A stretch of DNA of 20,000 bases from an uncultured virus (IMG/VR IMGVR_UViG_3300030060_003974) (Duplodnaviria; Heunggongvirae; Uroviricota; Caudoviricetes), in IMG/VR virus record IMGVR_UViG_3300030060_003974, positions 44,684-64,683 of that record; one strand, written 5' to 3'. The position numbers and the translations under genes are program-made. The notes under the pieces are model-generated. The model saw only the letters and a program-made list of their open reading frames with translations, did no database searches and was not told the DNA's origin. Positions 2 through 20,000 of this stretch are shown here, in pieces. How positions within the stretch are numbered: position 1 is the first letter of the stretch; the number at the start of each line of letters is the position of its first letter.

Positions 2-3000
2 ATTGATAACTACCAAATTAATGAAAGAGGATTTATGCCATCTACGGTATTTGACGTAGGAAGATTAAAAAGAGAAGCAAAGGAATTTGGATATGGTGTA
101 AGAGTCGCAAGATACAGAGAGGGGTATAGAGCTGGAGAAATATCTGGGTATTACTTAACTAAAGGTGGTAAATTCTTTAATCCTCGTGCTAGATATCAAA
201 TGATAGATTCTAACAATCCTATTGAGGTTGTTGTTGATGCTAGAAAAAACAAAATATCAGACGCAGCTATAAAAATAAAGCTTAGAGCAGATGGGTTAAC
301 CACCTCTCAAATAGCTGCAGCTTTAGAAAACGCTGAACTTTTTGCAGACATAAGCACTCAAGTGCCTTCAGCCTTTTTAATTTTAGGTGATAAGGTTGGA
401 AGAAAAGTATATAAACGTGTAGTTGACTTTGTACAAAAAACAAATATAGAAAACGCTAAAAAGAAATACAGAATAAGCGATGCAGAAATGGCTGCTATAG
501 CTGATAAAAAAGAAAAGGCGTTAAGAAAAAAAGCTAAATTAAAATCTCCTGATACAATTAAAGATGAGATAGCTGACTTTACAGCAAGGATGAAAAAGAA
601 AAATCCAAAGCTTACTCAAGATGAATTGAATGAGTTGGCTGTAAAAAAAGCTAATGATATAAATAGAGTAGAAGAGAAGAAGCTTAATACAGTTAACAAA
701 GCCATGAGAAAGTTTCGTGAAGACCAGGTTAAAAGAAATAACTCTAAACCAGCTAAACTAACAAAGGCAGAAATTATTGATCAAGCCATAGAGGTTTTAC
801 AAACTGACCCTGCTTACATAGATGCTGCAGGTAAAGTAGAAGGTAAGTCAGACTTACAAAGTCTAATGGTGGATCAGCTAATTGTGGCGCTGTCTACCAA
901 AGCTGCGCTTGATACTAACACCAAGGTTGAACAAGCTAAACAAAGAATAAAAAAACAAACTAAAGGTAAGGTTAAGATAAACACTAAGAAAGATTTATTT
1001 TATACACAAACTCAGTTAATTAATTTAATTAAGAAAACCATACCAGCTGCTCAGTTTAACAAGAAGCAAGTTAAAGACCTTATGGCTAAGGTAAGAGATT
1101 TAGTGAAGCCAGGGATAAATGTAGAACAAATATTTGACGAGGTTGTTGCTGAAATAAACACTATCAATAGTAAAATTTTACAACAAGAAATGACTGGTAT
1201 ACTAACTAAAAAGTATGAGAGTAAAAGTGGTGGTGTAACTAAAGCAAAACAGATAATAGGTGATGTAGCGGCTAGAATCAAAAACATACTTAAAAACTCT
1301 TTAGTAGAAGAAAATAAAAACTTAGACCTAGCTGAATTAGACAACCAGGTGACTAAGAAAAATGCTCAGCTTCAAGATAGGATGAATGAATTAGAGGCTG
1401 AAATAAAAGGTACTCCAGAAAACGTTGAGGAGCTTGTAAACGAGATGGCTGATATACAATTAGCTATGATGATTAACAGCACTTTAACTTTAGAAGACAG
1501 CTCTACAGCTAAAGTACAAGAGTTAAGCGCTATATTACAAAACTTAGATGAGTTGCTAATAGATGGTAATACACAATTAAAACTTGCTAAACAAGCTCAG
1601 TATCAAGCCCATCTTGAAAATATCAATGCGGCATATGAAGCTATTACAGGGGAGAAATTAGATTTAGGTATAAAAGAAAACATAGAAAAGGCTAAGAAAA
1701 AAATTGCTGAGACTAAAACACAGAAAGAACAAAATGCTTCTAAGATATTTTTACTTAGTAGAATGATGAGTACAATAGCTTCAGGGTTAAGCTACTTCCG
1801 TGATGCTACTTCAGGTCTTTCATTATTGATGGAGAAAATTGATGTACTTCCTGGTGAATTGTTTGGTGGGGTGATGCAAGATTTAGTGTACGAAAAAATA
1901 AACGAATCTAGTTATGCTTTTAAACAGTTTCAGATTGATAATCAAAAAATGTTAGAAGACAAAGCTATTGAATTATTTGTAGACCCTAGGTTCTTAGGTA
2001 TCAAGAAACCCTCATTTATAAAAAGAAGACAGGCTCGTAACGCTTTGCGAGACATGAATATTCCTGCTAATAAAAAAGGAGGGTTACTAGGTAGGGCTGG
2101 AAGGAAACTAAGATCTATGTTTACTAGAGCGGGTGCAAAAGAAATTTATACCACTTTTACTAAAGGAGTTAGAAGAGATGCTGATGGTAACCCTATATTT
2201 AGAGACCAAGCTGCTGTTGACCAGGCGTTAGCTGATTATAAAAATGCTACAGGATTTTTTAACAGACTGCGTAAGAAAGCCATACTAAGAGGGGTGATGG
2301 ATAAAAACGTAATTGATTTAAGTGATGGACAAACTTATTATTTATACAATCAATACAAAGACCCTCGTAATCATATAAATTTTGAAAACTCTCCAGATAT
2401 TGGGAAGGATCATGCTCGTATTATGCAACAGCTTGAGGAGTCTATGTCAGATGAATTAAAAGCTTGGGCTGACTGGCAAGTGAATGAGCTTTATCCTTTT
2501 CTATATACAAGATATAACAGAGTGTTTAAGAAATTATACCACACTAATTTAAACTGGAATAGATACTATGCAGGTAGATTATATTTAGATGGAGTAGAAA
2601 GAGATGCTGTAAACTTAACAGGTAAACCTAATATTTATAAAAAAGATGGTGTTACAAGCGCATCTATGTTTGATAGAGTCCACCATAATAATGCTATTGA
2701 ACTAGCAAATGGTAATGATGTGTTGTCTACATACTTGACTGATATGGATTGGTTTGCTGCTTACGGAGAAAGTATAAACGAAATTAGTAAGATGTTTGGT
2801 AATTCAGTTATAGCTGGCGCAATAAAAGCTAAAGAAGGAAAATTCTTTTACGATACTGTTATTAAAATTATAGATGAAATAGCAGGTAGAGGAATACAAG
2901 CTTCAGGAGCAAATAAATTTATTAACGTAACAAATAACTTCTTCTTAACTACACGATTAGCTTTAACACCAATTCTTGCAATAAAACAATTATTATCTAC

Positions 3001-4282
3001 GGTAACGTATGTAGGAGATATTGGTGTAGTAAACTGGTTAAAATACGCAGGTATGATGACAGCAAACACTCTAACTTTTGGAAAGTTCGGTAAAGGTTTT
3101 GCGGGAGCTGCAAAAGAAATATTTGCAAACTCACCGTACATGAAAGACAGATACAGTGCAGGATTCCAAAGAACACTAGAGGCTTATGATGGAACAAAAG
3201 AAACAAGATTAGTAGGATCGAGTGGTCAATCGTATCTACAGTTTGTTATGGACTTTAACTTATTTTTCTCAAAGCTGGGTGATGCTGGAGCGATATTCTT
3301 AGGTGGTATTCCTAACTATTTGTACTTTAAAGAACAGGCTCGTAAGACTAACCCTGATGCTACAGAACAAGAAATTATTGATATTGCAATAAAGCAGTTT
3401 CAAAGAAACACTAAAAATACTCAGCAGTCTTCAGACCTTCAAGATAAAGATATTTACCAAATGGGAGGTAGCGCCTTAAGGTATTTAAATATGTTTAAAA
3501 CATCTCCTAAACAATATTTAAGAAACTCTATGTATTCACAGATACAATTAGGTAGAAAAATTGGAGCTGCAACCAAAGCAATATTCCAAGGTAAAAATCC
3601 CTTAACAGCGATGAGTCAAGCAGGAAAAGGAACATTTGCAGAAAACTTAAGAAACTGGTTCTTATACCACGTTACAATGCCTGTTAGTTTCCAGTACGTA
3701 AGTATGGGATTGCCTGGTTTATTAAAGCCAGAGTTTGATGATGAAGATATTAATGATTTAGCTAGAGCTGCTGTATTAGGTAATGTAAATGCTGTATTTA
3801 TTTTAGGTGACTTAATTAAAGCAGCTACAGATTTAACGATAGGAGGAAAAAGATATGGTGAAGATGCAGGTATCAATTTACCTATCTATGAGCTGTATGA
3901 AAACTTTGGTAAAAACTATGTAAAAATGATAACTGTAAAAGACCCTCAATTAAAATATTTCTATGCTGTAAAAGCTTTTGCTGGTATAGGAGACATGGTA
4001 GGTCTTCCAGGATCAAAAGGAGTTCAACTGTTCCATCATTTAGATAAAATAAGTAATGGACGAATAAGTAATAATGAAAAGTTAATGAGAGCTTTAGGAT
4101 TTAGCGAGTATATAGTAAAGCAAAGTTTCCCACAAGAAGAAAAACCACCTGTAGGGTTAACTAACAAAGAAAAAAGAGAGTGGAAAATAAAACAAGAACG
4201 AAAGAAAAGTGGTAAAGGCCCAGTCTTAACTAATAGGGAAAAAAGAGAAAAGAAAATGAGAGAAAAAAAGAAAAGAAAATAA
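2..4282 (+). CDS. Very large phage protein, probably 5'-truncated by the window; putative virion-associated/internal (ejection-type) protein
   Basis: The 1415-aa ORF from 35 has an open frame back to position 2 (ATT GAT AAC TAC ... TTT ATG). It has a helical K/E-rich N-half and a more hydrophobic C-terminal region, and lies on the opposite strand to the replication genes. Function is inferred from size and context only. Confidence 0.6.
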   Translation: MDNYQINERGFMPSTVFDVGRLKREAKEFGYGVRVARYREGYRAGEISGYYLTKGGKFFNPRARYQMIDSNNPIEVVVDARKNKISDAAIKIKLRADGLTTSQIAAALENAELFADISTQVPSAFLILGDKVGRKVYKRVVDFVQKTNIENAKKKYRISDAEMAAIADKKEKALRKKAKLKSPDTIKDEIADFTARMKKKNPKLTQDELNELAVKKANDINRVEEKKLNTVNKAMRKFREDQVKRNNSKPAKLTKAEIIDQAIEVLQTDPAYIDAAGKVEGKSDLQSLMVDQLIVALSTKAALDTNTKVEQAKQRIKKQTKGKVKINTKKDLFYTQTQLINLIKKTIPAAQFNKKQVKDLMAKVRDLVKPGINVEQIFDEVVAEINTINSKILQQEMTGILTKKYESKSGGVTKAKQIIGDVAARIKNILKNSLVEENKNLDLAELDNQVTKKNAQLQDRMNELEAEIKGTPENVEELVNEMADIQLAMMINSTLTLEDSSTAKVQELSAILQNLDELLIDGNTQLKLAKQAQYQAHLENINAAYEAITGEKLDLGIKENIEKAKKKIAETKTQKEQNASKIFLLSRMMSTIASGLSYFRDATSGLSLLMEKIDVLPGELFGGVMQDLVYEKINESSYAFKQFQIDNQKMLEDKAIELFVDPRFLGIKKPSFIKRRQARNALRDMNIPANKKGGLLGRAGRKLRSMFTRAGAKEIYTTFTKGVRRDADGNPIFRDQAAVDQALADYKNATGFFNRLRKKAILRGVMDKNVIDLSDGQTYYLYNQYKDPRNHINFENSPDIGKDHARIMQQLEESMSDELKAWADWQVNELYPFLYTRYNRVFKKLYHTNLNWNRYYAGRLYLDGVERDAVNLTGKPNIYKKDGVTSASMFDRVHHNNAIELANGNDVLSTYLTDMDWFAAYGESINEISKMFGNSVIAGAIKAKEGKFFYDTVIKIIDEIAGRGIQASGANKFINVTNNFFLTTRLALTPILAIKQLLSTVTYVGDIGVVNWLKYAGMMTANTLTFGKFGKGFAGAAKEIFANSPYMKDRYSAGFQRTLEAYDGTKETRLVGSSGQSYLQFVMDFNLFFSKLGDAGAIFLGGIPNYLYFKEQARKTNPDATEQEIIDIAIKQFQRNTKNTQQSSDLQDKDIYQMGGSALRYLNMFKTSPKQYLRNSMYSQIQLGRKIGAATKAIFQGKNPLTAMSQAGKGTFAENLRNWFLYHVTMPVSFQYVSMGLPGLLKPEFDDEDINDLARAAVLGNVNAVFILGDLIKAATDLTIGGKRYGEDAGINLPIYELYENFGKNYVKMITVKDPQLKYFYAVKAFAGIGDMVGLPGSKGVQLFHHLDKISNGRISNNEKLMRALGFSEYIVKQSFPQEEKPPVGLTNKEKREWKIKQERKKSGKGPVLTNREKREKKMREKKKRK

Positions 4283-15359: not shown

Positions 15360-15535
15360 AATTTTAAATGTTTAGGGTCGTAATTTTTACCATCTTGATA
15401 TTCGAGGATTGCATAAACATCTGCTTTGTTATCATAAGCAAACTTCATTGCCTCTTTTTTAGTTTCAAATTCATAGTCATTCTCTATGTAATCTCCACTC
15501 TCTGTGTACTCTCGTAATTCTACTATATAATTCAT
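15356..15535 (-). CDS. Hypothetical protein
   Basis: ORF track start is 15541; ATG at 15535 is preferred because it gives the same 19-nt post-cleavage leader as three other ribozyme copies. Confidence 0.7.
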   Translation of the reverse strand: MNYIVELREYTESGDYIENDYEFETKKEAMKFAYDNKADVYAILEYQDGKNYDPKHLKL

Positions 15536-15548
15536 ATTCATATGTTTT

Positions 15549-15646
15549 GGTTAATAAGGAAGATGATACGACATATAATCATCTATTACATTGTTGGTTT
15601 CTCCTAACAACAACCTTTTCGGATATTGAATCCTCATCAGTTAACC
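15549..15646 (-). ncRNA. Hammerhead ribozyme type I (HH7), UUA cleavage triplet, branched stem III
   Basis: GGUUAA-CUGAUGA-GGAU-UCAAU-AUCC-GAAA-AGG-[54-nt insert]-CCU-UA-UUAACC; predicted cut between 15555 and 15554. Confidence 0.85.
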
Positions 15647-16296
15647 TCTATTGATTTAATTATTTCCTCGCATAGCTGAGGTGGTATCTTGCTTCTCTCG
15701 TGATTACCTTTTAGTCCCTGTGTACCTGTTTGGCTTCCTCTTGGTGCTGGTGTATGACACGAGTCCCCATTCTTACACATTGGTCGTGGAGTCCATCCCA
15801 TATCGTTAGTCCAAATGTCAGTAGGTTTCATTCTTGAGTCGCCATATTGACAATAGGTAACAGTTTCTCTTCTGTGTTTCATATCCTCCCAATGAGGTGC
15901 TTTTCTCATTTTACCTCTTGGGTTTTCTACGTACCACAATAGCTTTGGATTCTTGTCTAGATAATCAGAAATGATTCCTAATGTTTTCTCGAAGATTTTT
16001 AAGCCGATCATCTCAGGATCACGAGGGGTAAAATTCTCTCCTGACACCCATTTCTTACCTATACAGGCAACAGAAAAATCAGTACAGGGTGGAGATGCCC
16101 AAATGACATCAGGAATCCACAACTCATCTAACTCTCCTACATTCATTTCATTCATACGATAGTCCCAATCCATAATATCGCCCACCCAATTTGTATTGGG
16201 ATAAGCTACATTATCAACAGAGAATACCTCGTGACCACGTTGCTCGGCAACTTTGCCTACACTACGTGAACCACTAAATAGTTCTAGTATTTTCAT
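15637..16296 (-). CDS. DNA (cytosine-5) methyltransferase
   Basis: Motif I ILELFSGS, catalytic motif IV WASPPC, motif VI VENP, YCQYG..RMKPT.IW. Confidence 0.88.
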   Translation of the reverse strand: MKILELFSGSRSVGKVAEQRGHEVFSVDNVAYPNTNWVGDIMDWDYRMNEMNVGELDELWIPDVIWASPPCTDFSVACIGKKWVSGENFTPRDPEMIGLKIFEKTLGIISDYLDKNPKLLWYVENPRGKMRKAPHWEDMKHRRETVTYCQYGDSRMKPTDIWTNDMGWTPRPMCKNGDSCHTPAPRGSQTGTQGLKGNHERSKIPPQLCEEIIKSIEVN

Positions 16297-16309
16297 AATT
16301 GTTGGTTTT

Positions 16310-16389
16310 GATTAAGACACAAGAGTAATAAGCTACCANNNNNNNNNNCACCTCTTGTGTTTCGGACATCAAGTCCTCATCAGTTAATC
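16310..16389 (-). ncRNA. Hammerhead ribozyme type I (HH6)
   Basis: GAUUAA-CUGAUGA-GGAC-UUGAU-GUCC-GAAA-CACAAGAG-[loop containing N gap]-CUCUUGUG-UC-UUAAUC; predicted GUC cut between 16316 and 16315. Confidence 0.9.
16339..16348. other. Assembly gap (10 N)
   Basis: Run of n inside the stem III loop of HH6. Confidence 1.
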
Positions 16390-16626
16390 TGTTTTGTATT
16401 TATCAACTAAATTTTCTAATGCATATATGTATTTAAATATATGGTCGCTTTTGTTTAGTTCATCTTGATACGCTTGGCTAAAAACGTATATCTCTTCTGC
16501 ATCTAACTCTACTGACAAATGGCGTTCATTAAAATCAGTGAATTCAGGCTCATATATATACTCTAAAATTTTGTTAGATAAATGAATCATTTGTTCCTCT
16601 TGAAAAGGAGTAAGTTTGTTTTTCAT
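16384..16626 (-). CDS. Hypothetical protein
   Basis: 80-aa ORF; its TAA forms the end of the HH6 stem I 5' strand. Confidence 0.75.
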   Translation of the reverse strand: MKNKLTPFQEEQMIHLSNKILEYIYEPEFTDFNERHLSVELDAEEIYVFSQAYQDELNKSDHIFKYIYALENLVDKYKTD

Positions 16627-16907
16627 AATTTAATTGTTTTATATTCATCTAGATATTTGTCCCACAAAACGCTACCTGTTCTAATTAAATGTTTATTCGT
16701 TTCTGATAATCCATCAATCGAAAATCCATCTACAGACAGGATAAAGTTTGTGTCTTTGGTTTTGTATTCTTTCATAATCAATTTGATACAGTAAGATACA
16801 TAATCTAAATCTAATTCTCTGTCATAAGGTACTATGTCAATGAAATCAGATTTTCCAAATCCAGAATCTATTTGAATGTTATTATTACTATTAATTTTTT
16901 CTTTCAT
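16623..16907 (-). CDS. Hypothetical protein
   Basis: 94-aa ORF with the shared ACUAUCAAAUUAUG leader. Confidence 0.75.
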   Translation of the reverse strand: MKEKINSNNNIQIDSGFGKSDFIDIVPYDRELDLDYVSYCIKLIMKEYKTKDTNFILSVDGFSIDGLSETNKHLIRTGSVLWDKYLDEYKTIKL

Positions 16908-16930
16908 AATTTGATAGTGTTATTGGTTTG

Positions 16931-16977
16931 TACCACCAAAACCCCAACACGTTTTACTGTGTTGAGGTAAGGGCAGA
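16931..16977 (-). ncRNA. Unidentified structured RNA motif, copy 1
   Basis: UCUGCCCUU-ACCUCAACAC-AGUAAAAC-GUGUUGGGGU-UUUGGUGGUA, flanked by GUUUGU/ACAAAC (16988-16983 with 16931-16926). Confidence 0.6.
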
Positions 16978-16992
16978 TAATCACAAACTAAA

Positions 16993-17238
16993 TCAGGATG
17001 CGTTTAAGGGCGATTCTATATTGTACTCGCCATCCATAATAATTGCATCAATAATTTCTTCTTCATAATTGTATAGGACATCAGTGACATCATCTCCATT
17101 GAGAATCATTTTATCTATTGTAATCTCCTCAATAGGTGGGGAATCATAACTTCCTGACTCAACGTAGTGTTCGTAATAAACTTCTACTACATTGTTTTCG
17201 GACAGTTCCCAATCGAATTGTAATTTAGTAGCTTTCAT
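16993..17238 (-). CDS. Hypothetical acidic protein
   Basis: 81-aa D/E-rich ORF containing G.YD.PP. Confidence 0.75.
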   Translation of the reverse strand: MKATKLQFDWELSENNVVEVYYEHYVESGSYDSPPIEEITIDKMILNGDDVTDVLYNYEEEIIDAIIMDGEYNIESPLNAS

Positions 17239-17240
17239 AA

Positions 17241-17495
17241 TTATAATGTTGGTATTGTTTCATAACCTTTGATTGTAGTGAACAACGCACCACCATCATT
17301 ACCCTCATCATCCATAGATGAATAGAGCCAAAACTTCTCGCCTTTTTTGTTTTCCATTAACATACATAAAGGAGATTTGTACCACATCATGTCTTCTACT
17401 ACTTCTTCAGACATATACTCGACTTTAATTATCTTACATCCTAAAAGATGTTTCTTTGCTAAATCAGTCCAACGTGTTTCTGTGTTTGTATTCAT
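17241..17495 (-). CDS. Hypothetical phage protein
   Basis: 84-aa ORF with C-terminal SMDDEGNDGGALFT; follows HH5. Confidence 0.75.
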   Translation of the reverse strand: MNTNTETRWTDLAKKHLLGCKIIKVEYMSEEVVEDMMWYKSPLCMLMENKKGEKFWLYSSMDDEGNDGGALFTTIKGYETIPTL

Positions 17496-17516
17496 TTTTG
17501 ATAGTATTATAGGTTT

Positions 17517-17571
17517 GTAAATGACACCTACATTGTAGGTGTTTCGGATATTTAATCCTCATCAGATTTAC
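17517..17571 (-). ncRNA. Hammerhead ribozyme type I (HH5)
   Basis: GUAAAU-CUGAUGA-GGAU-UAAAU-AUCC-GAAA-CACCUAC-AAU-GUAGGUG-UC-AUUUAC; predicted GUC cut between 17523 and 17522. Confidence 0.93.
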
Positions 17572-17722
17572 TTTCTCTTAGATTTTCTCTTGCGATTGCA
17601 TTCTCTTTTGCTCGACAATATACACTGTAGTGATTTTCACGTACATAATCCATAAAGTCAGTATAAAAAAGAATATCATCTTCTAAATTTAAGAGGTCTG
17701 TTGTCCATAGTTTTGTTTTCAT
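17552..17722 (-). CDS. Hypothetical protein, 56 aa (MKTKLWTTDLLNLEDD...RESKSDED), not in ORF track
   Basis: Translated by hand; ATGA overlap with the upstream gene. Its last codons read through the HH5 core and it stops in loop II. Confidence 0.65.
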   Translation of the reverse strand: MKTKLWTTDLLNLEDDILFYTDFMDYVRENHYSVYCRAKENAIARENLRESKSDED

Positions 17723-18132
17723 TTCTTAAAGGTTTTAATAAAGTTATTTACTGTATCATCAAATTTAATTTGATAATCATAATCTCGCATTTGTATACGA
17801 ATTTTGTTGTCACTATTTGCATAAACAAAATATGTATATTCTTCCCAACAGTCATTGCTATTAGGTAGATTAACATAAATATTTCCACGTGGATTATCGT
17901 TTTTTAACGCACATAATGTTAGAGCAGTTAACTCTTCCATCCCATTGGCGTATTTCACTGAGGCAGATGCTTCATTATGAATAACTCCATTGGTCAACGT
18001 AAATTGTTGCAGAATCTCTGCTAATTCAACTCCGTGTGCATCAGGATAACCATCATAGTGTCTATACATAGTTAATAAAGTAGAAGAACCTCTTCCACCA
18101 TTTTCGAAATGTGTTAAACTTCGTGTTCCCAT
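17719..18132 (-). CDS. Conserved hypothetical phage protein (MGTRS...HYDGYP...EYTY type)
   Basis: 137-aa ORF with a motif set seen in many small phage proteins; function unknown. Confidence 0.8.
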   Translation of the reverse strand: MGTRSLTHFENGGRGSSTLLTMYRHYDGYPDAHGVELAEILQQFTLTNGVIHNEASASVKYANGMEELTALTLCALKNDNPRGNIYVNLPNSNDCWEEYTYFVYANSDNKIRIQMRDYDYQIKFDDTVNNFIKTFKK

Positions 18133-18150
18133 AATTGATAGTTTTTATGT

Positions 18151-18209
18151 ATTATAAGACACCTGTGTTTGACAGGCGTTTCGGATTTTAAATCCTCATC
18201 AGTTATAAT
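18151..18209 (-). ncRNA. Hammerhead ribozyme type I (HH4)
   Basis: AUUAUAA-CUGAUGA-GGAU-UUAAA-AUCC-GAAA-CGCCUGU-CAAAC-ACAGGUG-UC-UUAUAAU. A G-U wobble in stem III pairs only on the - strand. Predicted cut between 18158 and 18157. Confidence 0.93.
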
Positions 18210-18517
18210 TGAAATTGTCTAAGAAAATATCTGTACAGGTTTTTGACTCCTACTATTCTATTCTTCCACTGAGCATCTTGTGTTTTGTAAGTTCTAGTGG
18301 TTGTGTCATAGAAGACATTTCCTGAACAATACCATTGATGAAAATGGTATCTTCTAAGATTAGATTTATTCGGTTTACCTTTTAAATCGTATTCAGCGAT
18401 TTTATCTTCAGTTAATTTATCTTTAACCTCTTGTAAACTCCACTTGTATCCATCCTCTTCAAAAAACTCTTGATAGAATCGAAGAAACTTGATACTGTAA
18501 TTGAATTGATTGTACAT
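18203..18517 (-). CDS. Hypothetical protein
   Basis: 104-aa ORF flanked by HH3 and HH4. Confidence 0.75.
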   Translation of the reverse strand: MYNQFNYSIKFLRFYQEFFEEDGYKWSLQEVKDKLTEDKIAEYDLKGKPNKSNLRRYHFHQWYCSGNVFYDTTTRTYKTQDAQWKNRIVGVKNLYRYFLRQFQL

Positions 18518-18530
18518 AATTGATAGTTTT

Positions 18531-18586
18531 GATTAGGACACCTGTTCGCACAGGTGTTTCGGATACTGAATCCTCATCAGCTAATC
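18531..18586 (-). ncRNA. Hammerhead ribozyme type I (HH3)
   Basis: GAUUAG-CUGAUGA-GGAU-UCAGU-AUCC-GAAA-CACCUGU-GCGA-ACAGGUG-UC-CUAAUC; GNRA tetraloop on stem III; predicted cut between 18537 and 18536. Confidence 0.95.
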
Positions 18587-18702
18587 TCAATGTAGAAAAT
18601 CCACATTCCAACATAAAATATCAACCCTAGAAAAACTAGGAAGAATAATTCATAGAAGAAATTGATTGGGTCTTCTTTGATAGATTTAAAAAATTCTCTC
18701 AT
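18577..18702 (-). CDS. Small membrane protein, 41 aa (MREFFKSIKEDPINFFYELFFLVFLGLIFYVGMWIFYIEIS), not in ORF track
   Basis: Translated by hand; one strongly hydrophobic segment. Its TGA stop is the first UGA of the HH3 CUGAUGA core. Confidence 0.7.
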   Translation of the reverse strand: MREFFKSIKEDPINFFYELFFLVFLGLIFYVGMWIFYIEIS

Positions 18703-18720
18703 AATTAATTGTTTTAGTTA

Positions 18721-19113
18721 TTAAAATTTGATTGTCCCTTTACTGTTAACCTCATTGTAATGAGAATCCTTAAACTCTTCTACAAGGAATTCTCTATCTT
18801 CATCACTCAAGATGTTATGCCAGATGAATTCAAACTTCCTGTCGTGAATCGTATCGTGATAGTGATGATGCTCATACAATTTGTCATATCGTTCAACCTC
18901 TCTTTTATGTCTAGCTTCAACTGTCTCTACACGTTGCAGTGCTTCATCCAATTGAATCTGTCTATTTTTGGCTAAACTTGTCCATTGTAAAAGTCCATAG
19001 AGCATCTCAATTTTTGAGGTTTTAAGTGCCTCTTGGACATCTTCCTCAGTATGCTGAGGAAAGTGTCTTAAGAGCATCTCTTTGTCAATAATAATATCAG
19101 TATTTATTTTCAT
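18721..19113 (-). CDS. Hypothetical protein
   Basis: 130-aa ORF; ATGA overlap with the upstream gene. Confidence 0.75.
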   Translation of the reverse strand: MKINTDIIIDKEMLLRHFPQHTEEDVQEALKTSKIEMLYGLLQWTSLAKNRQIQLDEALQRVETVEARHKREVERYDKLYEHHHYHDTIHDRKFEFIWHNILSDEDREFLVEEFKDSHYNEVNSKGTIKF

Positions 19114-19358
19114 AATTTGTTAATTAGATTCAGTGCTTTTTTAATTGTTTTCGCAGTATATTGTGCGTTCTGAAAGTGGAAATAATCTTCGCCAATATTG
19201 GCTAGAAATTCTAGATTCCATTTAACAACATCTAAAGCATTTTTAGAATCGGTTCTTGTGTAACCCTTACTGCACTTTGCAGTAGGTTTTGATGTGTTGA
19301 TGACTGTGCTTTTAGACACTAAATCTTCACACATCTTAAAATACTCATTGTAATTCAT
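19110..19358 (-). CDS. Hypothetical protein
   Basis: 82-aa ORF following HH2. Confidence 0.75.
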   Translation of the reverse strand: MNYNEYFKMCEDLVSKSTVINTSKPTAKCSKGYTRTDSKNALDVVKWNLEFLANIGEDYFHFQNAQYTAKTIKKALNLINKL

Positions 19359-19371
19359 ATTTGATAGTTTT

Positions 19372-19475
19372 GATTAAGACACCTCAGGTCAAAATAGCCA
19401 AATCTGTGATCAGATTTTCGGTCATTTTAACCTGTAAAATAGGTGTTTCGGATAATAAATCCTCATCAGTTAATC
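19372..19475 (-). ncRNA. Hammerhead ribozyme type I (HH2) with long stem III extension
   Basis: GAUUAA-CUGAUGA-GGAU-UUAUU-AUCC-GAAA-CACCU-[56-nt hairpin insert]-AGGUG-UC-UUAAUC; predicted cut between 19378 and 19377. Confidence 0.92.
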
Positions 19476-19877
19476 TTCATCTTCATCTTCATCATCATCT
19501 TCGATTTCAATGTCCCAAGCATCACAAATATCTCGTTTGAGATAGTCGTCATCCTCCCATCTTTCAGCAACCATATTGAAGATATCTTCATCCATATAGA
19601 TTTTGTTATCTTCTTCAAAGTTATATGCGTATGAATTTTTCATAAACGCATCACAGATTGCCTCCAGTAGATTGTCATCATAGTAGTACACATCTTCAAG
19701 TATGCTTGTTTTACCACTCATATCATCAGTAAAAATATAGACATCATAACTGTCTGCAGTTTCCTGTGAATGAATCATATAATCTAGCCCACTAAAATCA
19801 TTATCTGTAATTTCTAATGGAAGATGTTCGTTAACAAATTGCTTGAATGTTAGTACATTTAACTCGTAAGTTTTCAT
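19470..19877 (-). CDS. Highly acidic hypothetical protein
   Basis: 135-aa D/E-rich ORF ending EIEDDDEDEDED, flanked by HH1 and HH2. Confidence 0.8.
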   Translation of the reverse strand: MKTYELNVLTFKQFVNEHLPLEITDNDFSGLDYMIHSQETADSYDVYIFTDDMSGKTSILEDVYYYDDNLLEAICDAFMKNSYAYNFEEDNKIYMDEDIFNMVAERWEDDDYLKRDICDAWDIEIEDDDEDEDED

Positions 19878-19899
19878 AATTTGATAGTTTATTGTGATT

Positions 19900-19955
19900 A
19901 TTATAAGACACCTCTTTCAAGGTGTTTCGGATTTTGAATCCTCATCAGTTATAAT
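19900..19955 (-). ncRNA. Hammerhead ribozyme type I (HH1)
   Basis: AUUAUAA-CUGAUGA-GGAU-UCAAA-AUCC-GAAA-CACCU-UGAAAG-AGGUG-UC-UUAUAAU; predicted GUC cut between 19907 and 19906. Confidence 0.95.
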
Positions 19956-20000
19956 GGTTAAGCATTGTTAATCGCACCCTCATAAGAGGTTAGATTATTA

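What the first reader, a model, noticed from the sequence alone, without database searches (positions are those of the whole stretch)
15549..19955. Seven hammerhead ribozymes punctuate a phage early operon: candidate self-processing polycistronic mRNA system
Seen in sequence: seven spacers (19900-19955, 19372-19475, 18531-18586, 18151-18209, 17517-17571, 16310-16389, 15549-15646) read on the coding (-) strand as stem I-CUGAUGA-4-bp stem II with 5-nt loop-GAAA-stem III-NUH-stem I, with an intact core in all seven. The stems covary: stem I AUUAUAA/UUAUAAU, GAUUAA/UUAAUC, GAUUAG/CUAAUC, GUAAAU/AUUUAC, GGUUAA/UUAACC; stem II GGAU/AUCC vs GGAC/GUCC; stem III CACCU/AGGUG vs CACAAGAG/CUCUUGUG vs AGG/CCU. 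Selection is therefore on RNA structure rather than DNA sequence. Established: this is the hammerhead catalytic consensus in type I topology; it cleaves 3' of NUH, leaving 5'-OH and 2',3'-cyclic phosphate ends. Hammerheads are already known from bacterial and phage intergenic DNA, so the class is not new. Inference: seven in 4.4 kb would cut one early transcript into units of 529, 841, 379, 635, about 1207 and 761 nt carrying 1-4 genes each. This would be a protein-independent analogue of RNase III processing of T7 early mRNA. The array may continue beyond 20000.
Basis: partly seen in the sequence, partly recalled or inferred. Interest (0 to 1): 0.95.

Follow-up and report, generated by a model that had tools for sequence, protein, structure and literature searches.

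The report
Hammerhead ribozyme array in phage operon
Seven genuine self-cutting hammerhead RNA motifs sit between the small early genes of an uncultured marine phage and probably chop one long message into shorter ones; the layout has been known in phages since 2011, so this is a clean, large example and not a new system.

Summary

The array continues past the window end. The contig ends overlap imperfectly, and the contig start holds one further hammerhead plus a strain variant of copy 1, giving eight distinct copies.

The same subtype fills other viral contigs: at least 130 stretches, 207 model matches in 100 loci, and up to 14 matches in 6.3 kb. Across 127 distinct sequences, 99.6% of cells pair and 16 of 18 pairs show compensatory changes.

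A covariation between the last loop II base and the base 3' of stem I falls where a known tertiary pair lies.

Rfam models align in register but stay below threshold. Cleavage is untested, and no RNA data were found.

Perreault et al. 2011 already proposed that clustered hammerheads cut phage transcripts. This scan has noted such arrays in over 100 other genomes.

Verdict: a new member of a known kind, of modest interest.

The parts
19900..19955 (-). Hammerhead 1, type I. Stem I is 7 bp, stem II is GGAU(U)/(A)AUCC. It cuts after C at 19907. The upstream stop codon lies at 19960-19958, and the leader to the ATG at 19877 is 29 nt.
19372..19475 (-). Hammerhead 2. Stem III is long and interrupted. 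It cuts after 19378. The stop codon TAA of ORF 19877-19470 forms the last three bases of the 5' strand of stem I.
   Evidence: (the minimum-free-energy fold is the full hammerhead, z -5.27)
18531..18586 (-). Hammerhead 3. It cuts after 18537. The stop codon of ORF 18702-18577 is the UGA inside the CUGAUGA core.
   Evidence: Rfam RF00163 aligns end to end, 15.3 bits against a threshold of 34
18151..18209 (-). Hammerhead 4. It cuts after 18158. Together with ORF 18517-18203 it forms a cassette that is absent from the closest relative, L044.
17517..17571 (-). Hammerhead 5. It cuts after 17523. ORF 17722-17552 reads through stem I, the core and stem II, and stops in loop II.
16310..16389 (-). Hammerhead 6. 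Stem II is GGAC/GUCC and stem III is 9 bp. It cuts after 16316. Loop III holds a masked run of 10 N.
15549..15646 (-). Hammerhead 7. H17 is A and the cleavage triplet is UUA. Stem III is short and carries two inserted hairpins. It cuts after 15555. The stop codon of the methyltransferase ORF is the UGA of the core.
   Evidence: the ortholog in L095 has C17; the minimum-free-energy fold competes; 31.5 bits
15356..19877 (-). Thirteen co-oriented small ORFs of 41-219 aa, cut into units of 1-4 genes. Only the 219-aa ORF at 16296-15637 has a family match (DNA methyltransferase, phrog_757).
16908..16995 (-). The one long spacer in the array without a hammerhead. It folds into an extended hairpin of -25.9 kcal/mol (z -3.33) followed by UUUUGG. 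It could be an RNase III-type site, a weak terminator or a stabiliser.
   Evidence: no Rfam match
16908..19895 (-). Span that holds the six in-window copies of the leader word ACUAUCAA, each 2-3 nt before the ATG of the first gene. They follow hammerheads 1-5 and the hairpin spacer. The words begin at 19888, 19368, 18527, 18142, 17505 and 16918.
   Evidence: 10 copies on the minus strand of the genome, about 2.4 expected from base composition

Best explanation
These are active-type type I hammerhead ribozymes built into the gene junctions of the early operon of a roughly 64-kb uncultured marine phage. The phage is probably Flavobacteriia-infecting.

**Proposed mechanism (inferred unless marked otherwise).**
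1. A promoter in the long non-coding region at the contig start drives one minus-strand transcript across the small early genes.
2. As each 55-104-nt element is completed it folds and cuts itself 3' of C17 (A17 in copy 7).
3. The upstream piece keeps its stop codon. That codon lies inside or just before stem I or the core. The piece ends in the folded stems II and III with a 2',3'-cyclic phosphate.
4. The downstream piece starts with a 5'-OH and a 13-29-nt A-rich leader.
5. The short, AU-rich 6-7-bp stem I then falls apart, so the cut is effectively irreversible.
6. The result is seven messages in the window, eight in the whole operon, of 379-1207 nt with 1-4 genes each. Their stability and translation no longer depend on neighbouring sequence.

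**Shown here:** the sequence anatomy, the strand, covariation of all three helices, and a covariation signal at the position of the known tertiary contact.

**Inferred:** the single transcript, cleavage in vivo, and the effect on expression.
For: **In this genome.**
- The core and three helices are intact in 7 of 7 copies, at the stated coordinates.
- The motif count is 7 against 0.00 expected.
- Model R2 was built only from 150 matches in other viral contigs. In this genome it finds exactly 9 matches, all on the minus strand: the seven, the extra copy at C1:571-668, and the strain variant at C1:250-346. It finds nothing else at E <= 1.

**Covariation across contigs (127 distinct sequences).**
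- 99.6% of 2138 cells pair, against 66.4% in shuffles and 23-42% when partners are slid.
- 16 of 18 pairs change on both sides.
- The two invariant pairs are G10.1-C11.1 and A15.1-U16.1, as the hammerhead consensus requires.
- Orthologous copies in the closest relative differ by compensatory changes, for example GGAU/AUCC against GAAU/AUUC in copy 2.

**Tertiary motif (176 sequences of the subtype, 9 of them from this genome).**
- Stem I is held at 6 bp in 161 of 186 unique hammerheads.
- An A precedes stem I in 175 of 176.
- The last loop II base covaries with the base 3' of stem I. Of 175 sequences, U:A occurs 150 times, A:U 14 times (in 8 contigs besides this genome), G:A 8 times, and other combinations 3 times.
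- Those are the positions of the reverse-Hoogsteen pair L1.U1: 3' A of loop 2 seen in the Schistosoma and sTRSV hammerhead crystal structures (Dufour et al. 2009, PMC2632901, passages read).

**Layout.**
- 172 of 186 unique hammerheads have an ORF start within 80 nt downstream, median 23 nt.
- An upstream stop lies between -29 and +11 of C3 in 169 of 186.

**Single transcript.**
- No TAnnTTTG box lies in any ribozyme spacer on the minus strand. Two lie upstream of the first gene, at C1:1435 and 1253.

**Precedent.** Triple hammerhead arrays from prophages cleave in vitro at all sites (Perreault et al. 2011, passages read).
Against: - No cleavage or transcript data exist. None of the 20 listed runs that hold the stretch is on record as RNA, and three metatranscriptomes of samples that hold the DNA gave no usable cover (see Tried and rejected).
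- No Rfam family reaches its gathering score. There were 0 matches at gathering. RF03152 scored 26.0 and 22.9 bits against 56.3. RF00163 scored 15.3 against 34 on copy 3 alone.
- Minimum-free-energy folding gives the complete junction for only 2 of 8 copies. For copy 7 and for the upstream copy a competing fold is predicted.
- Copy 7 uses a UUA triplet and a 4-bp stem III, which from recall is a slow combination in minimal hammerheads.
- The alignment used for the covariation counts was fitted to the model. The loci were fetched with a pattern that fixes stem II, so stem II counts lean towards the structure.
- The upstream stop codon lies in or near the 5' half of the ribozyme. A terminating ribosome would therefore unfold it, and cleavage efficiency in vivo is uncertain.
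- The promoter consensus used is recalled, not computed.
Confidence: 0.85

Rival explanations
1. The repeated hammerhead-plus-leader module acts mainly at the DNA level. It serves as the boundary of exchangeable gene cassettes. Recombination between near-identical modules adds, drops and reorders small early genes, much as the promoter-stem-loop cassettes of T4-type phages do (recalled: Arbiol et al. 2010). This does not exclude RNA cleavage.
For: - Against the closest relative (L044, 80-91% DNA identity) the window has three extra pieces. Two are bounded by hammerheads.
- The first is [ORF 18517-18203 + hammerhead 4]. The single hammerhead of L044 aligns to both copy 3 and copy 4.
- The second is [hammerhead 7 + ORF 15541-15356].
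- The third, ORF 16907-16623, is bounded by a roughly 30-nt repeat of the leader.
- In L095 the homologous genes stand in a different order, with hammerheads at the junctions.
- Array size differs among related records: 8 distinct here, 6 in G004, 4 in G002, 1 in G001, 1 in a cultured Elemovirus and 0 in MW202828.
- The same roughly 45-nt loop III insert occurs in non-orthologous hammerheads.
Against: - Only one close relative was compared base by base, and three indels is a small sample.
- Junctions between genes are where indels survive in any case.
- A pure DNA role would not keep every catalytic base and compensatory pairing.
Confidence: 0.25
2. Cleavage is not constitutive but is gated by translation of the upstream gene. 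A ribosome terminating at the stop codon embedded in stem I, the core or loop II unfolds the ribozyme. The cut would then report whether the upstream ORF is being translated.
For: - The stop lies at -3, +1 or +11 of C3 in 72 of 186 unique hammerheads, and within 29 nt upstream in 97 more.
- In the window it lies at -12, -3, +1, -3, +11, -3 and +1 for copies 1 to 7.
Against: - The overlap is equally explained by genome compaction, and by the stop codons that TTAA-CUGAUGA happens to contain.
- No kinetic or expression data exist.
Confidence: 0.1
3. The elements are structured repeats that no longer cut. They could be decayed ribozymes serving as 3' stabilisers, attenuators or protein-binding sites.
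For: - Rfam thresholds are not reached.
- Stem I is weak and not predicted by folding in 4 of 8 copies.
Against: - Every catalytic base is kept in 7 of 7 copies here.
- Both core-adjacent pairs, G10.1-C11.1 and A15.1-U16.1, are invariant in all 127 distinct sequences.
- The tertiary-pair positions covary. Decay would erode these first.
Confidence: 0.04
4. Pairs of hammerheads release gene-length RNAs that are ligated into circles or spliced products, as in viroids and retrozymes.
For: - Cleavage leaves 5'-OH and cyclic-phosphate ends that can be ligated.
- Some neighbouring copies have compatible stem I strands. For example the 3' strand of copy 2 can pair with the 5' strand of copy 3 with one G-U (read).
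Against: - Compatibility is not systematic along the array.
- Perreault et al. report that they could not detect spliced or circular products (passage read).
Confidence: 0.03

Closest known systems
Clustered hammerhead ribozymes flanking genes in prophages (Perreault et al. 2011, PLoS Comput Biol, PMC3088659; passages read)
   Same: - Several complete hammerheads lie on one strand, flanking single genes or short blocks of phage genes.
- The inferred role is processing of a long phage transcript into gene- or operon-length mRNAs.
- The genes in between are not constant.
   Different: - There are eight distinct copies here, against the triple arrangements that were tested there.
- All copies here are type I, of one compact subtype: a 6-bp stem I, a 4-bp stem II and a 5-nt loop.
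- The host range is probably marine Flavobacteriia phages.
- Stop codon, ribozyme, leader and start codon are fused into one module of about 80 nt.
- The paper's figures and PDF supplements could not be seen, so larger arrays or this subtype may already be listed there.
Extended natural hammerheads with the loop 1 / loop 2 tertiary contact (Schistosoma and sTRSV structures; Dufour et al. 2009, PMC2632901; passages read)
   Same: A fixed-length stem I is followed by a base that pairs with the 3' base of loop 2. 14 of 175 sequences carry the canonical U (loop 1 side) and A (loop 2 side).
   Different: - Stem I is open here, so the 3' tail takes the place of loop 1.
- 150 of 175 carry the swapped orientation, A on the stem I side and U in loop 2.
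- Loop 2 reads U-N-A-W-U and does not fit the RNnA motif.
- In that paper the swapped arrangement was made only as a double mutant, which partly restored activity.
Rfam RF00163 (Hammerhead_1, type I) and RF03152 (RAGATH-1 hammerhead)
   Different: - Scores are 15.3 against 34 bits and 22.9-26.0 against 56.3 bits, so routine annotation misses the array.
- RAGATH-1 has a 1-bp stem II and an extra 5' hairpin, which these copies lack.
- A cultured Elemovirus phage does carry a RAGATH-1-like copy.
RNase III processing of the phage T7 early transcript (recalled)
   Same: One early polycistronic RNA is cut at intercistronic structured sites into stable mRNAs of one to a few genes.
   Different: - The cut there is made by a host protein at double-stranded hairpins. 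Here it would be made by the RNA itself.
- The end chemistry differs: 5'-OH and 2',3'-cyclic phosphate here, against 5'-phosphate and 3'-OH there.
- Only the hairpin at 16908-16995 looks like a protein-cut site.

Membership tests
Hammerhead ribozyme (class) | Conserved core C3 U4 G5 A6 N7 G8 A9 and G12 A13 A14 | tested here: met
   CUGAUGA and GAA are present in 7 of 7 window copies and in both copies at the contig start.
Hammerhead ribozyme (class) | Three helices around the core, with A15.1-U16.1 and a pair at 10.1-11.1 next to it | tested here: met
   - Stems I, II and III are 6-7, 4-5 and 4-9 bp in 7 of 7 copies.
- Both core-adjacent pairs are invariant in 127 of 127 distinct related sequences.
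Hammerhead ribozyme (class) | Cleavage-site base H17 is not G and follows U16.1 | tested here: met
   H17 is C in six copies and A in one. Among 186 unique related copies it is C in 146 and A in 40.
Hammerhead ribozyme (class) | Helices supported by compensatory changes | tested here: met
   - 16 of 18 pairs change on both sides.
- 99.6% of cells pair, against 66.4% in shuffles and at most 41.8% when partners are slid.
- Caveat: the alignment was fitted to the model.
Hammerhead ribozyme (class) | Tertiary contact between stem I and loop II, needed for speed at cellular Mg2+ | tested here: inconclusive
   - The positions that correspond to the known L1.U1 : loop 2 3'-A pair covary (U:A 150, A:U 14, G:A 8, other 3, of 175).
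- Stem I length is fixed at 6 bp in 161 of 186.
- A coupled one-pair extension of both helices would explain the same counts.
Hammerhead ribozyme (class) | Site-specific self-cleavage giving 5'-OH and 2',3'-cyclic phosphate | not testable with these tools
   No RNA run holds the stretch.
Type I topology | Stem I is open; stems II and III are closed by loops | tested here: met
   The order is stem I 5' strand, core, stem-loop II, GAAA, stem-loop III, UH, stem I 3' strand in 7 of 7 copies.
Rfam RF00163 Hammerhead_1 / RF03152 RAGATH-1 hammerhead | Bit score at or above the family's gathering score | tested here: not met
   - There were 0 matches at gathering in the window.
- RF03152 scored 26.0 and 22.9 against 56.3.
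- On copy 3 alone, RF00163 scored 15.3 against 34 and RF03152 scored 24.8.
Clustered phage hammerheads (Perreault et al. 2011) | Several hammerheads on one strand flanking genes of a phage or prophage | tested here: met
   - Seven in 4.4 kb, eight distinct in the operon, all on the coding strand.
- The phage nature follows from primase/helicase, SNF2 helicase, VRR-NUC, exonuclease and methyltransferase matches.
RNase III processing sites (T7 early type) | Extended double-stranded hairpin with an internal loop between cistrons, cut by host RNase III | tested here: inconclusive
   The hammerhead spacers do not have this form. The spacer at 16908-16995 does fold into such a hairpin (z -3.33), but nothing shows that it is cut.

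The most novel reading that the evidence does not exclude
The fused module (stop codon, type I hammerhead, ACUAUCAA leader, start codon) is the unit by which these marine phages gain, lose and reorder early genes. A ribozyme-delimited gene cassette would bring its own message boundaries, so any newly acquired gene is expressed independently of its neighbours. The module also uses a naturally swapped version (A:U instead of U:A) of the hammerhead's tertiary pair as its majority form.
Probability: 0.25. Interest if true: 0.55.

Novelty: new member of a known kind. Interest (0 to 1): 0.3.

Why it matters
What bacterial and phage hammerheads are for is still called an open question in reviews (PMC6155905 and PMC6765202, passages read).

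Dense, regular arrays like this one give a well-defined test bed.
- There are eight cut sites in one operon.
- The junction architecture is fixed.
- Close relatives differ by whole cassettes.
- A cultured relative (Flavobacterium phage, genus Elemovirus) carries at least one hammerhead in the same kind of region.

There is also a practical point. Standard Rfam annotation misses the whole array, and gene callers place spurious ORFs over the ribozymes.

The covariation at the tertiary-pair positions is natural evidence for a contact so far supported by crystal structures and mutants.

None of this changes the known picture of what such arrays probably do.

Tried and rejected
**RNA evidence.** No RNA holder is listed. 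The 20 runs that hold the stretch are all DNA, from marine metagenomes in 10 studies. Three metatranscriptomes of samples that hold the DNA were laid as contigs. Two gave nothing and one gave a single 34-base piece under 90% identity. This says nothing either way about expression.

**Rfam at gathering.** No match in the window.

**Other ribozyme classes.** Nothing appeared in the remaining spacers or in the 5' region at the contig start in E-value mode up to 10.

**GenBank phages.** blastn of the array found no match.

**MAFFT alignment.** The alignment of all eight unmasked copies misplaced the 3' halves because of the loop III inserts and was not used. The model was seeded from the four compact copies instead.

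**Loop II pseudoknot.** A search for pairing of loop II with flanking sequence found nothing beyond the single covarying position.

**Own promoter per gene.**
- Sigma-70-like sites are at chance level (37 against 35.0).
- No TAnnTTTG box lies in the spacers.

**Trans cleavage of half-sites.** It was rejected because in type I copies with a closed stem III the cut site is part of the ribozyme strand. One 3'-half remnant without a core was seen at about L001:1100-1160.

**Nested hammerhead in the shared loop III insert.** The core word is not there (read).

**Two plus-strand descriptor hits** at C1:22183-22496 have minimal stems (4/2/3 bp) and loops of over 200 nt. They were dismissed as chance.

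Full report
**What is there**

The window is the last 20 kb of a 64,683-base viral record, which CheckV rates as 100% complete.

Reading the minus strand of 15400-20000 shows seven spacers of the form stem I, CUGAUGA, stem-loop II, GAAA, stem-loop III, UH, stem I.

The core is complete in 7 of 7, with A15.1-U16.1 and G10.1-C11.1 present. H17 is C six times and A once.

The 24-base motif occurs 7 times in the window, all on the minus strand. The mean over 200 shuffles is 0.00.

The ORF map agrees with units of 1, 3, 1, 2, 4 and 1 genes between cut sites that are 529, 841, 379, 635, 1207 and 761 nt apart.

**The array continues**

The contig ends overlap imperfectly. C1:1-264 and C1:303-392 match the last 349 bases at 94.7% and 98.9% identity. 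The record is therefore a circular or terminally redundant genome assembled across two strain variants.

The copy at C1:347-249 is the allele of copy 1 with about 43 extra bases in loop III. A DNA contig from another study shows the same 43-base insert at 19915/19916 and runs on past the window end.

Upstream lies one further distinct hammerhead, C1:669-570, with a different stem II. Before it come two small ORFs and about 1 kb of non-coding DNA.

This gives eight distinct copies. Model R2, built only from sequences of other contigs, finds exactly these nine elements in the genome and nothing else at E <= 1.

**Are they hammerheads?**

By the defining consensus, yes.

By Rfam thresholds, no.
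- There were 0 matches at gathering.
- There were two weak RAGATH-1-hammerhead matches, 26.0 and 22.9 bits against 56.3.
- On copy 3 alone, Hammerhead_1 aligned end to end at 15.3 bits against 34.

Thermodynamic folding alone is mixed.
- The full junction is the minimum-energy fold for copies 2 and 3.
- Only stems II and III form for copies 1, 4, 5 and the variant of copy 1.
- A competing fold is predicted for copy 7 and the upstream copy.

**Comparative evidence**

A model from the four compact window copies finds 207 matches in 100 of those loci, 405 kb in all.

On the 150 best matches (127 distinct), the counts are as follows.
- 99.6% of 2138 cells pair, against 66.4% in shuffles and 23-42% with slid partners.
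- 16 of 18 pairs change on both sides.
- The two invariant pairs are the ones the hammerhead core requires.

There are two caveats. The alignment is fitted to the model, and the fetch pattern fixed stem II.

Orthologous copies in the closest relative show compensatory differences in stems II and III.

**A compact junction module**

Among 186 unique hammerheads found by descriptor in all fetched loci, 9 of them from this genome:
- stem I is 6 bp in 161;
- the median length is 56 nt;
- 172 have an ORF start within 80 nt downstream, median 23 nt;
- the upstream stop lies at -3 (37 cases), +1 (25) or +11 (10) of C3, at -29 to -5 in 97, and was not found in 17.

In the window the stops lie at -12, -3, +1, -3, +11, -3 and +1. 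The leaders are 29, 19, 19, 25, 27, 19 and 13 nt.

The word ACUAUCAA stands 2-3 nt before the ATG after copies 1-5, after the upstream copy, and after the hairpin spacer. There are 10 copies on the minus strand of the genome, with about 2.4 expected.

**Tertiary contact**

An A precedes the 6-bp stem I in 175 of 176 sequences, and loop II reads U-N-A-W-U.

The last loop II base covaries with the base just 3' of stem I. Of 175 sequences, U:A occurs 150 times, A:U 14 times, G:A 8 times and other combinations 3 times. The A:U cases come from 8 contigs besides this genome, with unrelated stems.

In type I topology, the base 3' of stem I is the counterpart of L1.1. Dufour et al. [quoted passage not shown] They also report partial rescue by the swapped double mutant (passages read).

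So 14 sequences, including window copies 1 and 4, carry the canonical orientation and 150 carry the swapped one. A coupled one-pair lengthening of both helices would give the same counts, so I rate this as suggestive.

**Context**

The genes downstream on the same strand are phage replication and recombination genes:
- a PDDEXK exonuclease;
- a BT4734-like primase/helicase;
- an SNF2 helicase;
- VRR-NUC;
- a DNA repair exonuclease.

The array genes themselves are small and unassigned, except for a 219-aa DNA methyltransferase.

The primase is 65% identical to that of an uncultured podovirus (MW202828) and 40% identical, over 38% of its length, to Flavobacterium phages of genus Elemovirus. The DNA occurs in marine metagenomes.

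From recall, Bacteroidetes promoters carry a TAnnTTTG box at -7. On the minus strand near the array, that word occurs at C1:1435 and 1253, upstream of the first gene. Otherwise it occurs only inside ORFs, never in a ribozyme spacer. Sigma-70-like sites are at chance level. This fits one transcript but does not prove it.

**Mechanism**

The most likely mechanism is co-transcriptional self-cleavage at each junction, as set out under Best explanation.

The type I orientation keeps each stop codon on the upstream product. It leaves the folded ribozyme as that product's 3' end. It gives the next gene a short, unstructured leader with a 5'-OH.

Whether a 5'-OH stabilises or destabilises the message depends on the host's RNases (recalled: RNase J1 degrades the glmS product in Bacillus, while RNase E prefers a 5' monophosphate). 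It cannot be decided here.

**Cassette dynamics**

Compared with the closest relative (L044), the window has three extra pieces.
- [ORF 18517-18203 + copy 4].
- ORF 16907-16623, between leader repeats.
- [copy 7 + ORF 15541-15356].

L095 has homologous genes in another order.

The number of R2 matches ranges from 0 to 6 in five related or similar-sized records. R1 gave 14 matches in a 22.5-kb contig.

The modules therefore mark the places where early genes come and go. This is the basis of the most novel reading.

**Novelty**

Perreault et al. 2011 state that multiple hammerheads flank genes in prophages. They state that this implies processing of long phage transcripts, and that three triple arrays cleave in vitro at all sites (passages read). 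Later reviews repeat the idea and call the function open.

My searches found no paper on arrays of this size, on this subtype, or on the swapped pair. However, the figures and PDF supplements of the 2011 paper could not be seen.

This scan has already noted hammerhead arrays in at least 107 other genomes, including an eight-copy marine case and a Flavobacterium-type phage case.

The finding is real, clean and large, but it is a new member of a known kind.

Noticed in passing
window 16908-16995 (-): This is the only long spacer of the array without a hammerhead. It folds into an extended hairpin (-25.9 kcal/mol, z -3.33, 0 of 200 shuffles as good) followed by UUUUGG, and is conserved in relative L044. 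It could be an RNase III-type site, a weak terminator or a stabiliser.
   Followed up: partly
window 19888, 19368, 18527, 18142, 17505, 16918 (-); L001:560 and 237 (-): The leader word ACUAUCAA stands 2-3 nt before the ATG of the first gene after most cut sites. It is absent before internal genes of each unit and is conserved in related contigs. There are 10 copies on the minus strand against about 2.4 expected. Its role is unknown; it could be a translation signal or a protein operator.
   Followed up: partly
L001:1-392 and window 19652-20000: The contig ends overlap at 95-99% identity, so the 'linear' record is a circular or terminally redundant genome assembled across two strain variants. 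The variants differ by a 43-base insert in loop III of hammerhead 1, also seen in a DNA contig of another study.
   Followed up: yes
L001:249-347 (-) and L062 (-), hammerhead cutting at 426: Nearly the same insert of about 45 nt sits in loop III of two non-orthologous hammerheads: the variant of copy 1 here, and the ortholog of copy 5 in another contig. This suggests exchange between copies or a small mobile hairpin.
   Followed up: no
L001:1100-1160 (-): The 3' half of a hammerhead (end of stem III, GUC, stem I 3' strand and leader, like the upstream copy) stands before the first gene of the operon without any CUGAUGA core upstream. It may be a decayed copy or the origin of the leader.
   Followed up: no
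L140:7096-7153 (-) = MT497078.1:27095-27152: The cultured Flavobacterium phage vB_FspP_elemoE_10-3D has one hammerhead among its small early genes (R2 40.8 bits). It has a 1-bp stem II of the RAGATH-1 kind. In the record it is covered by a 35-aa ORF called on the opposite strand.
   Followed up: partly
G003:C1:8352-14667 (loci L038, L039): A 22.5-kb viral contig holds 14 matches to model R1 within 6.3 kb, twice the density of this window.
   Followed up: partly
window 15637-16296 (-): This 219-aa ORF shows the PPC and ENPRG motifs of cytosine-5 DNA methyltransferases on reading. It matches phrog_757 (1e-31) but no Pfam family at E <= 0.01.
   Followed up: no
window 35-4282 (+): This 1415-aa ORF has no Pfam or PHROG match at the thresholds used.
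   Followed up: no
window 19361-19540 (+) and 19443-19634 (+): Mechanical ORFs of 59 and 63 aa on the opposite strand run across hammerhead 2. Such frames are likely to be mis-called as genes where ribozymes are not annotated.
   Followed up: no
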